Shown here in pieces: positions 361-10,165 of a DNA stretch of 64,000 nucleotides; within the stretch, counting starts at the first letter, position 1, and the number at the start of each line of letters is the position of its first letter. Under the pieces are notes generated by a model, which was not told where the DNA came from, ran no database searches, and saw only the letters and a program-made list of their open reading frames with translations. Made by a program: the position numbers and the translations under genes. This DNA comes from a virus: the IMG/VR virus record IMGVR_UViG_3300022700_000179, positions 32,001 through 96,000 of that record; one strand, given 5' to 3'.

Positions 361-437
361 TGATGGGAGCGACAGGAATCGAACCTGCTCTTCTGGGGAC
401 CGTACTCCACAGTGTGCTGCCTTTACACCACGCTCCC
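361..437 (-). ncRNA. tRNA-like element with aberrant 20-nt anticodon arm and a TCA 3' end
   Basis: GGGAGCG-TG-GTGT AAAGGCA GCAC-A-CTGTGGA GTACGG TCCCCAG-AAGA-GCAGG TTCGATT CCTGT-CGCTCCC-A-TCA. Confidence 0.8.
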
Positions 438-559
438 AGGTGGCCCGAAGGTGTATACCCAACAACTCCGGGCCTGCTTTGCCGGTACATAGTAACGGTT
501 GCCCACAAAAAGGGCTTCCTATCGCCGACGACGTTTAAGTTGCCGCTTCAGTTCTAACC

Positions 560-629
560 GCCCACGCTCTATCGCTGAGCTACAGGTCCATATAGAGGAC
601 CTGATGGGATTCAAACCCACGCCTTGGGC
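560..629 (-). ncRNA. circularly permuted tRNA-like domain (YrlA-type topology)
   Basis: GCCCA-AGGC-GTGGG TTTGAAT CCCAT-CAGGTCC TCTATAT GGACCTG-TA-GCTC AGCGATA GAGC-G-TGGGC: T arm, closed acceptor hairpin, D arm, open anticodon stem. Confidence 0.85.
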
Positions 630-729
630 TATATTGTCAGCAACATTCGATTCGACGAAACCGGCCAATGCTCAGCTTTGGAGAATAGCTTCAACTTTAG
701 TGGCTCGTAAACTACCGACGGCCGTATTC

Positions 730-834
730 CAGGCGGTGCTGTTGAGTACGGTTGCGTATGCCATTTCGCCATCCCTACGTAAAATGTAGGGAGCAGGATT
801 CGAACCTGCATGTCGATATGCTCACATCGCCCTG
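730..834 (-). ncRNA. circularly permuted tRNA-like domain on a long stem
   Basis: GCAGG TTCGAAT CCTGC-TCCCTAC ATTTTAC GTAGGGA-TG-GCG AAATGGCATA CGC (core about 753-809), with an imperfect enclosing stem. Confidence 0.8.
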
Positions 835-905
835 ATTTTGAATTTGAGTTTCAGCTTGTCTCCACTGCTAAGCTGCTTTGTCTTCTGCTACTACTCCGTT
901 TACAG

Positions 906-1643
906 TTACCCAAGCAAGAAGCTGAACAGTGCATCACCGACGGATTGTTTGTCGTCAACCTCCACAGAGTTGGCCTGTTCTCGGGCGAACTTCACCGCCT
1001 TGAGCATTTTCCGTGCTCGTTGCTGTAGCTCTTTCTTCCTATCCGCTGTCACAGCGCCAGACTGTTTGATGGTCGTCCAGGTTCCCACGATTTTGTCGAC
1101 CTGAACCAATTGTGTCTGTGCTGGATGTTCCGGCGTGGCCGGGAACAATACAATCGGTTCGTGTACCTTCGATTTTTTTGTGGTATCCACCGGGGCCGAC
1201 TTGAACAGTCCCGTAGCCGCATCCTTGCTCCAGGCAAAAGCTGGATCGAGTACTGGTAAGCTGTCAATAACCGTATTTAGGTCGGTTAGTTGCTTCTCCA
1301 AGAAGAGCAGGTGCGTGGCTGGTATGCGCGTTAGTAGCGTTTTACCATCCACCACTACATCTGCGTACGCATGACAGTTTGCAGCATCCTTCGCGTACAC
1401 CGTATCCATGTATTCGGTGAGCTGCTCTGCCACTTCCTGTAGCGTGTCTTCTACACGCATCTGAACGAGATGCCGTTCGGGTGGGAAGTCCTCCCCGTCC
1501 TCATCCTTTTTGGAGTAGGTTTTGGAGAAGCCTTCAAAAAGCGCCGATTTTTGCAGGGCCTTGTATTGGTCCGTGACAAAACGCATGACTCGAGTTTTGA
1601 CACCCTTTTCTACTGCGATGATCTGATGCAATTTGGTTGTCAT
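906..1643 (-). CDS. uncharacterised helical/coiled-coil protein (N-terminal KLHQIIAVEKG); candidate binder of the downstream ncRNA
   Basis: 245-aa ORF, SD AAAGGA, own promoter; resembles my recollection of a conserved DUF family (not verified). Confidence 0.85.
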   Translation of the reverse strand: MTTKLHQIIAVEKGVKTRVMRFVTDQYKALQKSALFEGFSKTYSKKDEDGEDFPPERHLVQMRVEDTLQEVAEQLTEYMDTVYAKDAANCHAYADVVVDGKTLLTRIPATHLLFLEKQLTDLNTVIDSLPVLDPAFAWSKDAATGLFKSAPVDTTKKSKVHEPIVLFPATPEHPAQTQLVQVDKIVGTWTTIKQSGAVTADRKKELQQRARKMLKAVKFAREQANSVEVDDKQSVGDALFSFLLG

Positions 1644-1683
1644 GGTTAATTCCTTTCAGGTTCAGTTTCGTTCTGTGTCCGCA

Positions 1684-1712
1684 ACAATACGGTACCTCTT
1701 TGTTGCTGTCAA
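1684..1712 (-). promoter_or_regulatory. sigma70-type promoter for ORF 906-1643 and the ncRNA
   Basis: TTGACA-N17-TATTGT. Confidence 0.7.
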
Positions 1713-2576: not shown

Positions 2577-3425
2577 CTATTTCGCTTTATTATATACATG
2601 ACCTTTATACATTATCTTGTCAGGTAAAGTTTTACTACTGGCGGTTGTATCTTTGCTGTTTACACTGTTGGCGACTTCGTCGAACACTTTTTTTGCGTCT
2701 TCTAGTGAGAAGTCTTCTCCTCGTGGTGAGCCGCAAGCTTTGGGGTGGCCTGCAAAGTGGATGCCCGCGACATTATTATTACCAAATTGGTAGTCATTTG
2801 ATGGGGCACAATAAATGGAGATGCTCTTAAAATGTTTTCTGTATACGACTACACAAGCGTAGCCGTCGTCATACGGTCTGCTGGGGTCGAAGCTGTCCTC
2901 TTTCCCTACTGCCCAAAGTCCTACCTTACCTTCTTTACTTACCAAATTGTTCTTCAGTGTTTGCTCTGCTTGTCTAGTGGCCTCTTTTCCTACCTTTATG
3001 TAGTTGGCCACAGGAATGCGGAGCATCTTTTTGATTTTGTCGGTGACTTCCTGGGGCTCTTTTTCCGTTCTTGGGAACCCTATGTCTTTAGCTATACTGT
3101 TAACACCAACCATAAAGGAATATGAGTCGTTCATTCGGTTTTCTACTACGGAGCTACCATTGACGTCCACCTTCTCAATTAGGTCGTAGTCGAGTTCGGG
3201 CATGGGTAATCCGGACATTCTGAATAACCCTAATAGTGTGTCTGCGTCGACATGTGTGATCTCTACGATGTCATTTGGTCCCAGCCTGGGTATTTCTGTG
3301 TTGTTGGACGGTGCTGGGTAACTGGAGTATTCTCCATGATGGTCGAAGTGCTTTACATTATCCGCCAATCCCGCTTCGATGGAGTAGTTTTTACCTGTTG
3401 CCTTGGGGACTAAAAATACTCGCAT
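2577..3425 (-). CDS. DHH-like phosphoesterase with a C-terminal tag motif
   Basis: FDHHG, THVDADT and FAGHPKACGSPRG motifs; SD GGAGG; ends PDKIMYKGHVYNKAK. Confidence 0.6.
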   Translation of the reverse strand: MRVFLVPKATGKNYSIEAGLADNVKHFDHHGEYSSYPAPSNNTEIPRLGPNDIVEITHVDADTLLGLFRMSGLPMPELDYDLIEKVDVNGSSVVENRMNDSYSFMVGVNSIAKDIGFPRTEKEPQEVTDKIKKMLRIPVANYIKVGKEATRQAEQTLKNNLVSKEGKVGLWAVGKEDSFDPSRPYDDGYACVVVYRKHFKSISIYCAPSNDYQFGNNNVAGIHFAGHPKACGSPRGEDFSLEDAKKVFDEVANSVNSKDTTASSKTLPDKIMYKGHVYNKAK

Positions 3426-5837: not shown

Positions 5838-6422
5838 ATGATCAACGACAGAACCGCAATTTTCATCGATGGGGCATATTTCGACAAGTTGCTCGAACTT
5901 GAATTCGGGCGGCTCCGTGTAGACTTTAACGCCTTCGTAAATAAGGCGCTTAAAGAGGACAACGTTTTCAGAACATACTATTACCACTGTCGTCCATTTA
6001 TGAGTACAAACCCTACTCCAGAGGAACAAAAACGTTACGAAGCAAAAGAGCGGTTTTTCTCTGCTTTGTCTTCTCTGCCAAGATTCGAGGTCCGTTTGGG
6101 AAAGTTGGTGTATCGCGGTCAGGACGAAAATGATCGGCCGATTTTCATACAAAAGCTAGTAGATATTATGCTCGGGGTAGACCTAGTACGGCTGGCCGCA
6201 ACACGCCAGATTACTCGGGCACTTTTAGTGGCTGGGGACAGTGATTTCGTTCCAGCGGTTGAGGAAGCGAAGCGGCAAGGGGTGCTGTTATCTCTTTTTC
6301 ACGGCCCTTCGCGGAGTTTGAACGGTAATTCGGGAACAGTACATCGTGAACTCTGGGAAGCGTGTGACGAACGTTTTGAGATCACTCAGGAGTTTCTGAA
6401 TTCAATCCGCCGTAAGGCTTAA
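5838..6422 (+). CDS. NYN-domain (LabA/DUF88, PIN-like) ribonuclease
   Basis: AIFIDGAY, QKLVDIMLGVD and LVAGDSDFVPAV motifs. Confidence 0.9.
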   Translation: MINDRTAIFIDGAYFDKLLELEFGRLRVDFNAFVNKALKEDNVFRTYYYHCRPFMSTNPTPEEQKRYEAKERFFSALSSLPRFEVRLGKLVYRGQDENDRPIFIQKLVDIMLGVDLVRLAATRQITRALLVAGDSDFVPAVEEAKRQGVLLSLFHGPSRSLNGNSGTVHRELWEACDERFEITQEFLNSIRRKA

Positions 6423-7939: not shown

Positions 7940-8082
7940 AGGTCCGGGTGATGCAGAAACGGCCTACTTCGCAATTGGTCGGTTGTCGCGGGTTCGATCC
8001 CCGCCTCCTTGGGTTATCAATCCTAGGGAGTAGCTCAGAGGACAGAGCACCGGGTAGCTGTTTTGATTGTTTCCCCGAACCT
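7940..8082 (+). ncRNA. yrlA: Y RNA, YrlA-like (putative Ro-binding stem plus permuted tRNA module)
   Basis: Shared GGGTGATGCA...TACTTCG...TTTCCCCGA frame enclosing T arm GCGGG TTCGATC CCCGC, closed acceptor hairpin CTCCTTGGG/CCTAGGGAG and D arm GCTC AGAGGACA GAGC; directly upstream of Ro60. Confidence 0.85.
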
Positions 8083-8371: not shown

Positions 8372-10165
8372 ATGCGTGTAGGGACTGGAAAGAGGAGCGT
8401 GACTGACCGCGCCGTGCGCGAAGCCTTGTCTCGGGCTACTGAACAGCGGTATGTAGGTGGACCGGCGTTTGATCTAGCTGATCCGGTCCAGCGTCTTATA
8501 TTTACTATCGGGTCTGGATTTTTTGGTGAGGATAAGTTTTACGACAGTCTACAGCCAACGGACGTGCAGGGTCACCGAACCGCAAAGGCGAGTTTGTCTA
8601 CCTATAAAGGTGAAACCTTAGTTCACCCTGAGAATATAAAGGATCGGTTTGGGTTTAACGAGTCTGCGCGGGATCTAGTTCGGACTATGCGTGAGATTGC
8701 TGAAGAAAAGAACTTCGAGGATTTACTAATACTAGCCAGGTGGGCGCGTGAGGACTTGAATCTTAGGCAGACGCCTATCATGGCTCTGGTTATATCTGCA
8801 CGGGCAGAGTTTGAACTGGGTCGTGGTAGTGGGTTGATTCGTAAGTATACGCCGTTGATTCTTCGTCGGGCAGACGAACCGAAACGGGCTTTTGCGGCCT
8901 ACCGTCACCTTTTCATGGAGGGGGCAGACGGTCGACGTAAAGGATCATTCCCGAAGCAATTTGCGCGTGGTTTGATTGAGTCTCTACAGCAGTTTAACGA
9001 GTATCAGATCTTGAAATATGACTCATCACGTGAGGCGCCCACTTTCAAGGATTTGGCTATTTTTCTATCACGGTACGAAGGTCGTGGAAAAGGACGCCCT
9101 CGACGATCTAATATGCGTCCATTCTCGCACGCCATGGCAAAATATTTGATTGATGGTGAGATAAACGCGAAAGCACTTCCCAAAGTGGCTGCTAGGGCGA
9201 AGCTTTTCAAGTTGAAGACGTGGTGCCCTACTGCCAAAAAACTGGCATTAGAGGGTGATGTTACTTGGGAAAATTTGATAAGCCACTTTGGTTCTACAAA
9301 GGCAACATGGGGATGGTTGATTCAAAATAGAAAATTGCCTTACATGGCAATGTTACGTAACTTGCGGAACTTAGAAAAAGTGGGCCTGTCTGATAGTGAT
9401 TGGGAGCGTGTTTACTCTTACCTTACTTCTGATGTAAATCATAGGCAGATGCCATTTCGGTTTCTGTCTGCTCGGAAAGAGGTGAGCCACCAAACTGCAC
9501 GGTCAGCTATAGATATAGCTCTGGATAAGTCGGTTCAGAACATTCCGGATTTGGGCGGTAAGACTTTTATCATGGTGGATGCCTCAGGTTCGATGGACGC
9601 GCTTGTTTCAAAACGTTCCACCATAAGCTGCAAAGAAGTTGGTATGGCGATGGCGGCGGTCTTGGCTAAGCGTGTTGGTCGTAGGGCTCGGCTCGGTGTG
9701 TTTGGGACTCGTTTCCAGCTCGTCAGCTTTTCTGAAGCGAATTCTGTCATGGCAATCGTCAACCAGCTTAAGGATGCAGGAATCCAGGTCGGCCATGCTA
9801 CTCACGCACATTTAGGCCTTGTGTGGGCGTTGGGGAAGTATACCGGCTTCAACGCGGAGGAATTTGATCGAGTTATCATCGTAAGTGACATGAACTGCTA
9901 TTCAGAGAACTTTTTACGGAACGGTACTGATTTGGTAAGCCTTTTGGCAGAATATCGTCATACGGTCAATCCGGATGTGTTTTTCTACAGCTTGAACATT
10001 TCTGGAGGTAACCAATCCCAGATGGATCCAAAAAACGACAGAACACTTTTGATGAGCGGATGGTCCGAGAAGGTCTTCCATCTGATCGCACAGTTCGAGA
10101 ATCCGGGCACATTGCCCACAATCGACGCGTTACGTGATAGGTTTAGCTATTCTACAGCTAGCTAA
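8372..10165 (+). CDS. rsr: Ro60/Rsr RNA-binding protein (TROVE + vWA)
   Basis: VTWE, LPYMAMLRNLRNL and QMPFRFLSA; vWA MIDAS DASGSM...T...VSDM; C-terminal SGWSEKVF; SD GAGGTG. Confidence 0.92.
   Translation: MRVGTGKRSVTDRAVREALSRATEQRYVGGPAFDLADPVQRLIFTIGSGFFGEDKFYDSLQPTDVQGHRTAKASLSTYKGETLVHPENIKDRFGFNESARDLVRTMREIAEEKNFEDLLILARWAREDLNLRQTPIMALVISARAEFELGRGSGLIRKYTPLILRRADEPKRAFAAYRHLFMEGADGRRKGSFPKQFARGLIESLQQFNEYQILKYDSSREAPTFKDLAIFLSRYEGRGKGRPRRSNMRPFSHAMAKYLIDGEINAKALPKVAARAKLFKLKTWCPTAKKLALEGDVTWENLISHFGSTKATWGWLIQNRKLPYMAMLRNLRNLEKVGLSDSDWERVYSYLTSDVNHRQMPFRFLSARKEVSHQTARSAIDIALDKSVQNIPDLGGKTFIMVDASGSMDALVSKRSTISCKEVGMAMAAVLAKRVGRRARLGVFGTRFQLVSFSEANSVMAIVNQLKDAGIQVGHATHAHLGLVWALGKYTGFNAEEFDRVIIVSDMNCYSENFLRNGTDLVSLLAEYRHTVNPDVFFYSLNISGGNQSQMDPKNDRTLLMSGWSEKVFHLIAQFENPGTLPTIDALRDRFSYSTAS

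What the first reader, a model, noticed from the sequence alone, without database searches (positions are those of the whole stretch)
529..1674. 6-nt-periodic A-rich tracts occur in the ncRNA and over the gene's own RBS, suggesting autoregulation
Seen on the - strand: AAGCTG AAACTC AAATTC AAAATC (about 834-857), CCACTA AAGTTG AAGCTA (about 686-703) and GAACTG AAGCGG CAACTT AAACGT (about 531-554) alternate with the tRNA modules. The short 5' leader of ORF 906-1643 reads AGAACG AAACTG AACCTG AAAGGA, with the last unit being the SD. Inference: an oligomeric protein binds one hexamer per subunit, by analogy with TRAP or Hfq rings. It would coat the ncRNA, and free protein would block its own RBS.
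Basis: partly seen in the sequence, partly recalled or inferred. Interest (0 to 1): 0.82.

Follow-up and report, generated by a model that had tools for sequence, protein, structure and literature searches.

The report
Six-base repeat track in phage RNA
The six-base A-rich repeats are a real, conserved, apparently unpaired motif (A-R-N-Y-U-N, usually four in a row) of an undescribed phage RNA made of tRNA look-alikes. The RNA always follows a gene of unknown function (DUF7873). Copies of the motif beside that gene's ribosome-binding site suggest, but do not prove, that the protein binds the RNA and limits its own synthesis.

Summary
**Observation: confirmed.** All four tracts are at the stated coordinates. 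In this window alone the periodicity is only nominally significant.

**Across the family it is strong.**
- I compared 67 non-redundant DUF7873 loci. In 63 the gene is followed by back-to-front tRNA look-alikes.
- The 5' flank of the first look-alike has strong 6-nt periodicity (lag-6 z 14.7; 13.2 without this window).
- The usual layout is helix P1, then (A-R-N-Y-U-N)x4.
- P1 and the tRNA-like arms covary. The hexamers stay unpaired in the consensus fold, and their variable positions 3 and 6 covary with nothing. That fits direct sequence readout.
- A search for P1 plus four units in 2.9 million viral contigs found 7 sites. Six lie just after a DUF7873 gene.

**Leaders.** Two or more such units occur in 24% of DUF7873 leaders, against about 2% of shuffles and 3% of other leaders. 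They usually sit 0-10 nt before the ribosome-binding site, as here (1668-1657).

- Tract 3 is a composite: one unit, a stem strand and a separate UUAAACG motif.
- Several proposed units (AGAACG, AAAGGA, CCACTA) do not fit the family motif.

**Not shown:** binding, oligomeric state and autoregulation are untested.

This scan has already reported the same gene-RNA pair and its hexamers on other genomes.

The parts
1684..1712 (-). Sigma-70-like promoter: TTGACA, 17 nt, TATTGT. It predicts a 5' leader of about 34 nt.
   Evidence: 10 of 12 matches. The transcription start is inferred, not mapped.
1644..1677 (-). 5' leader of the DUF7873 mRNA. Two family-type units, AAACTG (1668-1663) and AACCTG (1662-1657), are followed directly by the ribosome-binding site AAAGGA (1656-1651).
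   Evidence: two-unit score 11.7; 1-nt gap to the ribosome-binding site. Perfect two-unit chains occur about 0.23 times per kb in the window.
906..1643 (-). DUF7873 protein gene (245 aa), the candidate partner of the RNA.
   Evidence: Pfam PF25283, E 4.3e-94. AlphaFold2 pLDDT 96.1. No clear fold match. The profile finds 2727 clusters at 50% identity.
859..873 (-). 5' strands of basal helices P0 (GCUUAGC, 873-867) and P1 (UGGAGA, 864-859).
   Evidence: Fold. P1 covaries across 22 loci.
834..857 (-).
   Evidence: 27 of 63 loci have exactly four units. Unpaired in the consensus fold. Mean predicted unpaired probability here is 0.65.
754..809 (-). Module 1 core: T arm, 7-bp acceptor hairpin closed by the loop AUUUUAC, then D arm. 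This is a back-to-front tRNA look-alike with no anticodon.
   Evidence: Arms covary.
670..697 (-). H3 units AAGUUG (697-692) and AAGCUA (691-686), P1 3' strand UCUCCA (684-679), then H3' unit AAGCUG plus AGC (678-670), which forms the P0 3' strand.
646..652 (-). AAUCGAA, an instance of the conserved RAUCGAM motif 5' of module 2.
   Evidence: sequence listings. It resembles the Ro-binding motif GNCGAAN0-1G quoted in PMC4201824 but does not match it.
536..644 (-). Module 2, a second back-to-front tRNA look-alike. T arm to acceptor is 620-583, D arm about 582-566.
   Evidence: Rfam YrlA 34 bits, E 5e-5, below the gathering score of 69. Custom scan.
531..554 (-). It is a composite: one conserved unit (A)GAACUGA (554-549), the stem strand GCGGCAAC, and the conserved motif UUAAACG (538-532).
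364..437 (-). tRNA-shaped element with an abnormal anticodon arm at the 3' end of the RNA region.
   Evidence: ARAGORN tRNA-???. Rfam tRNA 46.3 bits.

Best explanation
**What it is.** The hexamers are sequence-specific recognition units (A-R-N-Y-U-N; positions 1, 2, 4 and 5 constrained, 3 and 6 free). They form a mostly unpaired track in a conserved phage RNA of about 500 nt.

**Layout.** Helix P1 is followed by four units, then a back-to-front, anticodon-less tRNA look-alike, then two units, the return strand of P1 and one more unit. A second tRNA look-alike follows with a single unit after it.

**How it most likely works.**
- The RNA is probably co-transcribed with the DUF7873 gene just upstream.
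- DUF7873 most likely docks on the track, one unit per binding site.
- In this phage, and in about a quarter of its relatives, two or three units also lie directly upstream of the gene's ribosome-binding site.
- Protein not bound to the RNA could then sit on its own leader and block ribosome entry. This is the autogenous control used by ribosomal proteins, or the titration seen with CsrA and CsrB.

**Shown here:** conservation, periodicity, absence of a covarying partner, linkage to the gene, and enrichment in leaders.

**Inferred:** who binds, the stoichiometry, and repression.

**My odds**
- Real functional element: 0.95
- Read as unpaired sequence: 0.7
- Reader is DUF7873: 0.5
- Autoregulation in this phage: 0.3
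For: - **Periodicity.** Lag-6 periodicity in the 5' flank of module 1 gives z 14.7 (13.2 without this window). Lag 12 gives z 8.2. The 3' flank gives z 8.2.
- **Anatomy.** P1, then one nucleotide, then units; 27 of 63 loci have exactly four.
- **Consensus fold.** RNAalifold on 22 loci pairs P1, T arm, acceptor and D arm with many compensatory changes and leaves the hexamers unpaired. The named structure is 88% paired against 69% in shuffles, 0 of 500.
- **No covariation.** Variable hexamer positions covary neither with the 3' units nor within the track.
- **Linkage.** 63 of 67 non-redundant DUF7873 loci have the tRNA-like module downstream. The reverse pattern search gave 7 hits, 6 right after a DUF7873 gene and 1 in a coding AQAQ repeat.
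- **Distant homologues** keep the period but change the word: AACUUU/AUCUUU in a Klebsiella phage and AGCGUU x4 in Ralstonia phage RSL1. A Vibrio phage appears to keep P1 and the track while lacking the first tRNA-like insert.
- **Leaders.** AA at lag 6 gives z 5.5. Two units or more at score 10 or above occur in 24% of leaders, against 1.7% of shuffles and 3% of 267 control leaders (Mann-Whitney p 4e-8). The chain ends -1 to +5 nt from the ribosome-binding site in 11 of 18.
- **Transcription.** A promoter sits just upstream of the leader, and no terminator-like site lies between the gene and the RNA.
Against: - No direct evidence exists that DUF7873 binds RNA. Its confident model matches no known RNA-binding fold, and the family is uncharacterised.
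- Its oligomeric state is unknown.
- About 75% of family leaders lack two clear units. One actinophage clade has different period-7 AACGAC repeats.
- The unit pattern is self-complementary when shifted by one base, so helices need no covariation to form.
  - Thermodynamic folds pair about 60% of track bases.
  - Native tracks fold slightly better than swapped ones (-0.96 kcal/mol, p 0.01).
  - The first 5' unit and the last 3' unit can extend P1 by 4 bp (17/22 and 13/22 at the central pairs).
- Leaders match their own tracks better than other loci's tracks (P 0.003), but shared base composition could explain that.
Confidence: 0.45

Rival explanations
1. The hexamers are purely architectural RNA. 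Their self-complementary pattern lets the tracks form irregular helices or tertiary contacts that space and orient the tRNA-like domains. No protein reads them. The leader copies are an unrelated A-rich translation enhancer.
For: - The pattern is its own reverse complement shifted by one base (one search finds the same run on both strands).
- The minimum-energy fold of the window pairs AGCUGAAACU with AGUUGAAGCU.
- R-U pairs at 16-211 and 19-208 are always possible.
- Native tracks fold better than swapped ones by 0.96 kcal/mol.
Against: - Real helices in the same RNA covary strongly, while the hexamers conserve sequence instead.
- The central pairs of the second unit pair are met in only 7/21 and 9/21 loci.
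- There are four 5' units against two 3' units.
- Position-6 bases show no complementarity.
- Leader enrichment is specific against other leaders of the same phages.
Confidence: 0.2
2. A host factor reads the units, not DUF7873. Candidates are Hfq (A-R-N motif), ribosomal protein S1 or RNase E. DUF7873 would act elsewhere, for example on the tRNA-like domains.
For: - The first half of each unit is A-R-N, the known Hfq distal-face word (established knowledge of Hfq).
- Every third base is free.
- The hosts of these phages are very diverse, which would suit a universal factor.
Against: - Only alternate triplets are A-R-N, and Hfq prefers contiguous ones.
- The word changes with the DUF7873 lineage (AGCGUU, AACUUU), which fits co-evolution with a phage-encoded reader.
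- Hosts include actinobacteria and cyanobacteria, whose Hfq is absent or atypical (from my own knowledge).
- The motif is exclusive to DUF7873 loci.
Confidence: 0.15
3. The track is a start-less mini-message. ARN-YUN reads as alternating Lys/Arg/Asn/Ser and Leu/Phe codons (here KLKLKFKIRAM-stop), decoded in a tmRNA-like way next to a tRNA-like domain.
For: - Positions 3 and 6 are free, like wobble positions.
- The window has an in-frame UGA after 11 codons, and the Vibrio phage reads KLKLKLK-stop.
- Acceptor loops in many homologues encode NCCA.
Against: - An in-frame stop before the T arm occurs in only 17 of 36 loci.
- The same units occur in the 3' flank, after module 2 and in the untranslated leader.
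- No tmRNA model reaches its threshold here; there is only a 15.7-bit partial hit.
- The window's acceptor has A3-U70, not G3-U70.
- 32% of position-3 bases are pyrimidines.
Confidence: 0.05
4. Chance. A-rich sequence read with a flexible rule.
For: - In the window alone, strict rules show no enrichment.
Against: - Family-wide periodicity without any motif rule gives z 13-15.
- The pattern search is nearly exclusive to DUF7873 loci.
Confidence: 0.02

Closest known systems
YrlA-type bacterial and phage Y RNAs with Ro60/Rsr (Rfam RF02553; Chen et al. 2014, PMC4201824)
   Same: - A non-coding RNA whose core is a tRNA look-alike: T arm, closed acceptor stem, D arm, no anticodon.
- The core is carried on a basal stem that serves as a protein platform.
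- The 7-bp acceptor, with NCCA in many homologues, recalls M. smegmatis YrlA, which RNase P cleaves and which receives CCA (PMC4201824).
- Module 2 gives a weak YrlA hit.
   Different: - Scores lie well below the gathering threshold (34 against 69 bits).
- Two modules stand in tandem.
- The platform is a hexamer track rather than the Ro-binding helix.
- The linked protein is DUF7873, not a TROVE protein.
- 4 of 5 complete DUF7873 phages lack Ro60.
- This phage has a separate Ro60 gene with its own Y-RNA-like element 7 kb away.
TRAP with the trp leader (11 (G/U)AG repeats spaced by 2-3 nt)
   Same: Short words repeated at a 5-6 nt period in unpaired RNA, one word per subunit, including occlusion of a ribosome-binding site (established knowledge of TRAP).
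   Different: - DUF7873 has no match to the TRAP family.
- There are only 4 + 2 + 1 units.
- The word is bipartite (AR and YU).
- No ring or oligomer has been shown.
CsrA/RsmE with the sponge RNAs CsrB/RsmZ, and autogenous control by ribosomal proteins
   Same: Same logic: a structured RNA carries several copies of a site that also lies over a ribosome-binding site, so protein not held by the RNA represses translation, including its own.
   Different: - The motif is not GGA in hairpin loops.
- The protein is unrelated.
- The RNA is encoded in the same transcription unit as the protein.
- Binding is untested.
Hfq distal-face (A-R-N)n motif
   Same: An A-R-N word with a free third base.
   Different: A-R-N alternates with Y-U-N rather than repeating directly. 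The word varies with the phage protein lineage.

Membership tests
YrlA / Y RNA (RF02553) | Reaches Rfam's gathering score | tested here: not met
   34 bits against 69 for 644-536. Homologous loci score 27.8-37.1 bits.
YrlA / Y RNA (RF02553) | tRNA-like domain: T arm, closed acceptor stem, D arm | tested here: met
   the arms covary.
YrlA / Y RNA (RF02553) | Encoded next to and bound by Ro60/Rsr | tested here: not met
   No TROVE match in 4 of 5 complete DUF7873 phages. In this window Ro60 lies 7 kb away on the other strand with its own YrlA-like element. Binding itself cannot be tested here.
YrlA / Y RNA (RF02553) | Ro-binding helix with GNCGAAN0-1G (PMC4201824) | tested here: inconclusive
   A conserved RAUCGAM motif lies 5' of module 2 (AAUCGAA at 652-646). 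It is similar but not identical.
TRAP-type repeat-binding system | Protein of the TRAP family | tested here: not met
   Pfam finds only DUF7873. Fold searches list no TRAP, but a fold-search absence does not exclude it.
TRAP-type repeat-binding system | Many trinucleotide repeats with 2-3 nt spacers in unpaired RNA | tested here: inconclusive
   Units recur at a strict 6-nt period and are unpaired in the consensus. There are only 4 + 2 + 1, and the word is bipartite.
Hfq (A-R-N)n site | Three or more contiguous A-R-N triplets | tested here: not met
   A-R-N alternates with Y-U-N.
CsrA/CsrB-type sponge | GGA motifs in hairpin loops and over the ribosome-binding site | tested here: not met
   The units lack GGA.
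tmRNA | Tag reading frame ending in a stop codon, plus Ala identity (G3-U70) | tested here: not met
   An in-frame stop occurs in 17 of 36 loci. The window's acceptor has A3-U70. Only a 15.7-bit partial tmRNA hit.
Autogenous translational control by site mimicry | A copy of the RNA's protein site overlaps or abuts the gene's own ribosome-binding site | tested here: met
   Window units 1668-1657 abut the ribosome-binding site. Across the family the figure is 24% against 2-3% in controls.
Autogenous translational control by site mimicry | The protein binds both sites and represses translation | not testable with these tools
   Needs binding and reporter assays. The complex predictor was closed.

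The most novel reading that the evidence does not exclude
DUF7873 assembles one subunit per hexamer on a track of set length and so builds an undescribed phage RNA-protein particle. The particle displays two anticodon-less tRNA mimics that RNase P can process and that can carry CCA. It could act as a decoy or adaptor for host tRNA-directed enzymes or defences. Its protein-to-RNA ratio would be set by the protein repressing its own mRNA through leader copies of the same hexamer.
Probability: 0.25. Interest if true: 0.85.

Novelty: new variant of a known kind. Interest (0 to 1): 0.68.

Why it matters
- **Size of the family.** DUF7873 is large: 2727 clusters at 50% identity. It occurs in phages of actinobacteria, cyanobacteria, rhizobia, vibrios and enterobacteria, and no paper in the searched library mentions it.
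- **A testable handle.** The hexamer track is the first concrete hypothesis for this protein: a defined 24-nt RNA ligand.
- **Annotation.** The RNA appears to be misannotated in several public phage records, as small ORFs or as a suppressor tRNA, which the motif could help correct.
- **If binding holds.** It would define a second, Ro60-independent class of particles built on tRNA mimics, with built-in dosage control.

Tried and rejected
- **Complex prediction.** Oligomeric state is therefore untested.
- **Fold searches.** Foldseek against PDB and BFVD gave nothing at E <= 1e-3. VIA-align's best hit was 3kdq, a protein of unknown function (Z 8.9, rmsd 8.3, 147 residues aligned). The rest were generic helical hairpins. 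A profile search of PDB sequences and the ESM Atlas found only DUF7873 itself or unnamed phage proteins.
- **5' units pairing with 3' units.** Tested in every register by cross-sequence permutation. The top z was 2.6 among 432 column pairs, which is noise. Continuing P1 into the hexamers is no better than permuted partners.
- **Hairpins inside the track.** No complementarity between position-6 bases.
- **Coding reading.** Rejected as the main explanation.
- **Strict AA-period-6 rule in the window alone.** Not enriched.
- **Papers.** Searches for DUF7873, YrlA with phage, and permuted tRNA with phage found no description of this RNA.

Full report
**Context.** The window is bases 32001-96000 of a 105.7-kb viral contig. 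On the minus strand a sigma-70-like promoter (1712-1684) precedes a leader of about 34 nt. The 245-aa ORF 1643-906 is a full-length DUF7873 protein (PF25283, E 4.3e-94). Downstream, 905-360 folds far better than shuffles (z -4.25). It holds two back-to-front tRNA look-alikes, each running T arm, 7-bp acceptor hairpin, D arm. One of them gives a sub-threshold Rfam YrlA hit (34 bits). An odd tRNA-shaped element follows at 437-364. No terminator-like site separates the gene from the RNA.

**Observation.** Within the window alone the evidence is modest:
- Strict AA-at-period-6 runs occur at the genomic rate.
- A rule fitted after the fact gives P of about 0.008.
- With the family rule, the only run of 3 or more perfect units in 128 kb of both strands is 857-840.

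**Comparative test.** tblastn found DUF7873 in 75 phage records. IMG/VR gave 80 or more further loci. I reduced these to 67 representatives below 80% protein identity.
- In 63 of them a back-to-front tRNA-like module follows the stop codon. Usually there are two, 150-190 nt apart.
- A motif-free autocorrelation of 'A followed by purine' in the 5' flank of module 1 peaks sharply at lag 6 (209 against 92.7, z 14.7) and at lag 12 (z 8.2).
- Dropping this window changes little (z 13.2). The 3' flank gives z 8.2.
- The anatomy is regular: helix P1 (often GGAGCR paired with YGCUCC), one nucleotide, then usually four units A-R-N-Y-U-N. The tRNA-like core follows, then two units, one nucleotide, the P1 return strand and one more unit.
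Tract 2 is the two 3' units preceded by a non-unit (CCACTA).
- Tract 3 is a composite: one conserved unit after module 2, a stem strand and a separately conserved UUAAACG.

**Paired or not.**
- RNAalifold on 22 loci pairs P1, T arm, acceptor and D arm with many compensatory changes. It leaves both hexamer tracts unpaired.
- Counting a named structure confirms the real helices: 88% paired against 69% in shuffles (0 of 500), and 35-50% when the partners are slid.
- For the hexamers, the first 5' unit and the last 3' unit can add four pairs to P1. Two R-U pairs are always possible; the central pairs are met in 17/22 and 13/22 loci.
- The next unit pair is not a helix (7/21 and 9/21).
- Permutation tests find no covariation of the variable positions 3 and 6, either between tracts or within the track.
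- Swapping tracks between loci costs only 0.96 kcal/mol.

The pattern is therefore conserved as sequence, with every third base free, and not as pairing. That points to direct readout. A caveat is that the pattern is self-complementary when shifted by one base, so a structural role cannot be excluded.

**Link to the protein.**
- A search of 2.9 million viral contigs for GGAGCNC followed by four units found 7 sites. Six lie 30-390 nt after a DUF7873 gene on the same strand. The seventh is a coding AQAQ repeat.
- Distant homologues keep the period but change the word. A Klebsiella jumbo phage has AACUUU/AUCUUU, and Ralstonia phage RSL1 has AGCGUU four times.
- A Vibrio phage appears to keep P1 and the track without the first tRNA-like insert. 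The track would then be the more constant part.
- Ro60 is absent from 4 of 5 complete DUF7873 phages. This phage has its own Ro60 and a Y-RNA-like element elsewhere.

**Leaders.**
- Across 67 leaders, AA autocorrelation peaks at lag 6 (62 against 32.6, z 5.5). A control stretch upstream shows nothing.
- I built a weight matrix from the RNA units of other loci. It finds two consecutive units (score 10 or above) in 24% of DUF7873 leaders. The figure is 1.7% for dinucleotide shuffles and 3% for 267 other leaders from the same contigs (Mann-Whitney p 4e-8).
- The chain usually ends -1 to +5 nt from the ribosome-binding site (11 of 18). In this window AAACTG AACCTG is followed by AAAGGA.
- Most family leaders lack two clear units. 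One actinophage clade has period-7 AACGAC repeats instead. Mimicry of the leader is therefore frequent but not universal.

**The protein.** AlphaFold2 gives a confident model (pLDDT 96.1, pTM 0.74) of long helices and a long beta hairpin. Foldseek and VIA-align find no convincing relative. Nothing shows RNA binding or oligomerisation, and the complex predictor was closed. The family is large (2727 clusters) and absent from the searched literature.

**Interpretation.** The best reading is a protein-docking track for DUF7873, with leader copies that allow autogenous repression. This works like ribosomal-protein or CsrA/CsrB control and resembles TRAP in format. It is a member of none of these families. 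The rivals are a purely architectural role, a host reader such as Hfq, and a codon-like mini-message. The units do read as (K/R/N/S)(L/F), but only 17 of 36 loci have an in-frame stop before the T arm, and the same units occur in untranslated places.

**Earlier work in this scan.** Other agents' notes describe the same DUF7873-RNA pair, its hexamers and copies beside the ribosome-binding site on other genomes. I read those notes only, on which the analyses above rest. My results agree with them.

Noticed in passing
L001-L090, acceptor loops of the modules (e.g. L006 about 3399-3405; L018, L037, L047): In many homologues the loop that closes the 7-bp acceptor stem begins NCCA (ACCA, TCCA, GCCA). 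This suggests RNase P cleavage and a CCA 3' end, as reported for M. smegmatis YrlA (PMC4201824). The window's loops (ATTTTAC, TCTATAT) lack CCA.
   Followed up: partly
L010 3441-3650 (Microcoleus phage My-WqHQDG): A HEARO/OMEGA-type RNA (129 bits) lies right after the DUF7873 gene, where the tRNA-mimic RNA is expected. No module was detected there, so it may be an insertion or a replacement.
   Followed up: no
L006 575-1103 (Gordonia phage Phendrix); L001/L002 5016-5334: A tmRNA (89 bits) lies between annotated tRNA genes with no annotation of its own. Permuted tmRNA hits (about 60 bits) lie 1.8 kb downstream of DUF7873 in two IMG/VR contigs. DUF7873 loci often sit inside phage tRNA/tmRNA clusters.
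   Followed up: no
L091 2512-2591 (Klebsiella phage FBKp24); L007 3226-3694 (Gordonia phage Ziko): Public annotation places a 'tRNA-Sup-TTA' and small hypothetical ORFs inside the stretch that holds the tRNA-mimic RNA. These are probably misannotations of the RNA.
   Followed up: no
L093 about 2310-2460 (Vibrio phage D517): The first module appears to keep P1, four units (AAACTA AAACTC AAACTA AAATGA) and the 3' units. A small hairpin stands where the tRNA-like core should be. The leader carries the same word, AAACTA.
   Followed up: partly
window 532-538 and 646-652 (minus strand): Two further conserved motifs of the RNA family: UUAAACG 3' of module 2, and RAUCGAM 5' of module 2. The second resembles the Ro-binding GNCGAA motif of YrlA.
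   Followed up: partly
window 834-857 (minus strand) and homologous tracks: The track reads as alternating Lys/Arg/Asn/Ser and Leu/Phe codons (here KLKLKFKI RAM stop). The conserved N-terminal Lys-Leu of DUF7873 is itself encoded by a unit-like AAATTG at 1634-1629.
   Followed up: partly
window 7944-8081 (+) and 8372-10165 (+); 5838-6422 (+): The same phage carries a Ro60 homologue (TROVE plus Ro60 vWA domains), preceded by a YrlA-like RNA (35.7 bits), and an NYN-domain ribonuclease. This is a second, separate RNA-protein system within 10 kb.
   Followed up: partly
L005, L026, L055, L056, L077 leaders: An actinophage clade has two or three AACGAC repeats at about 7-nt spacing in the DUF7873 leader. 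They differ from the ARNYUN units of the same phages' RNAs.
   Followed up: no
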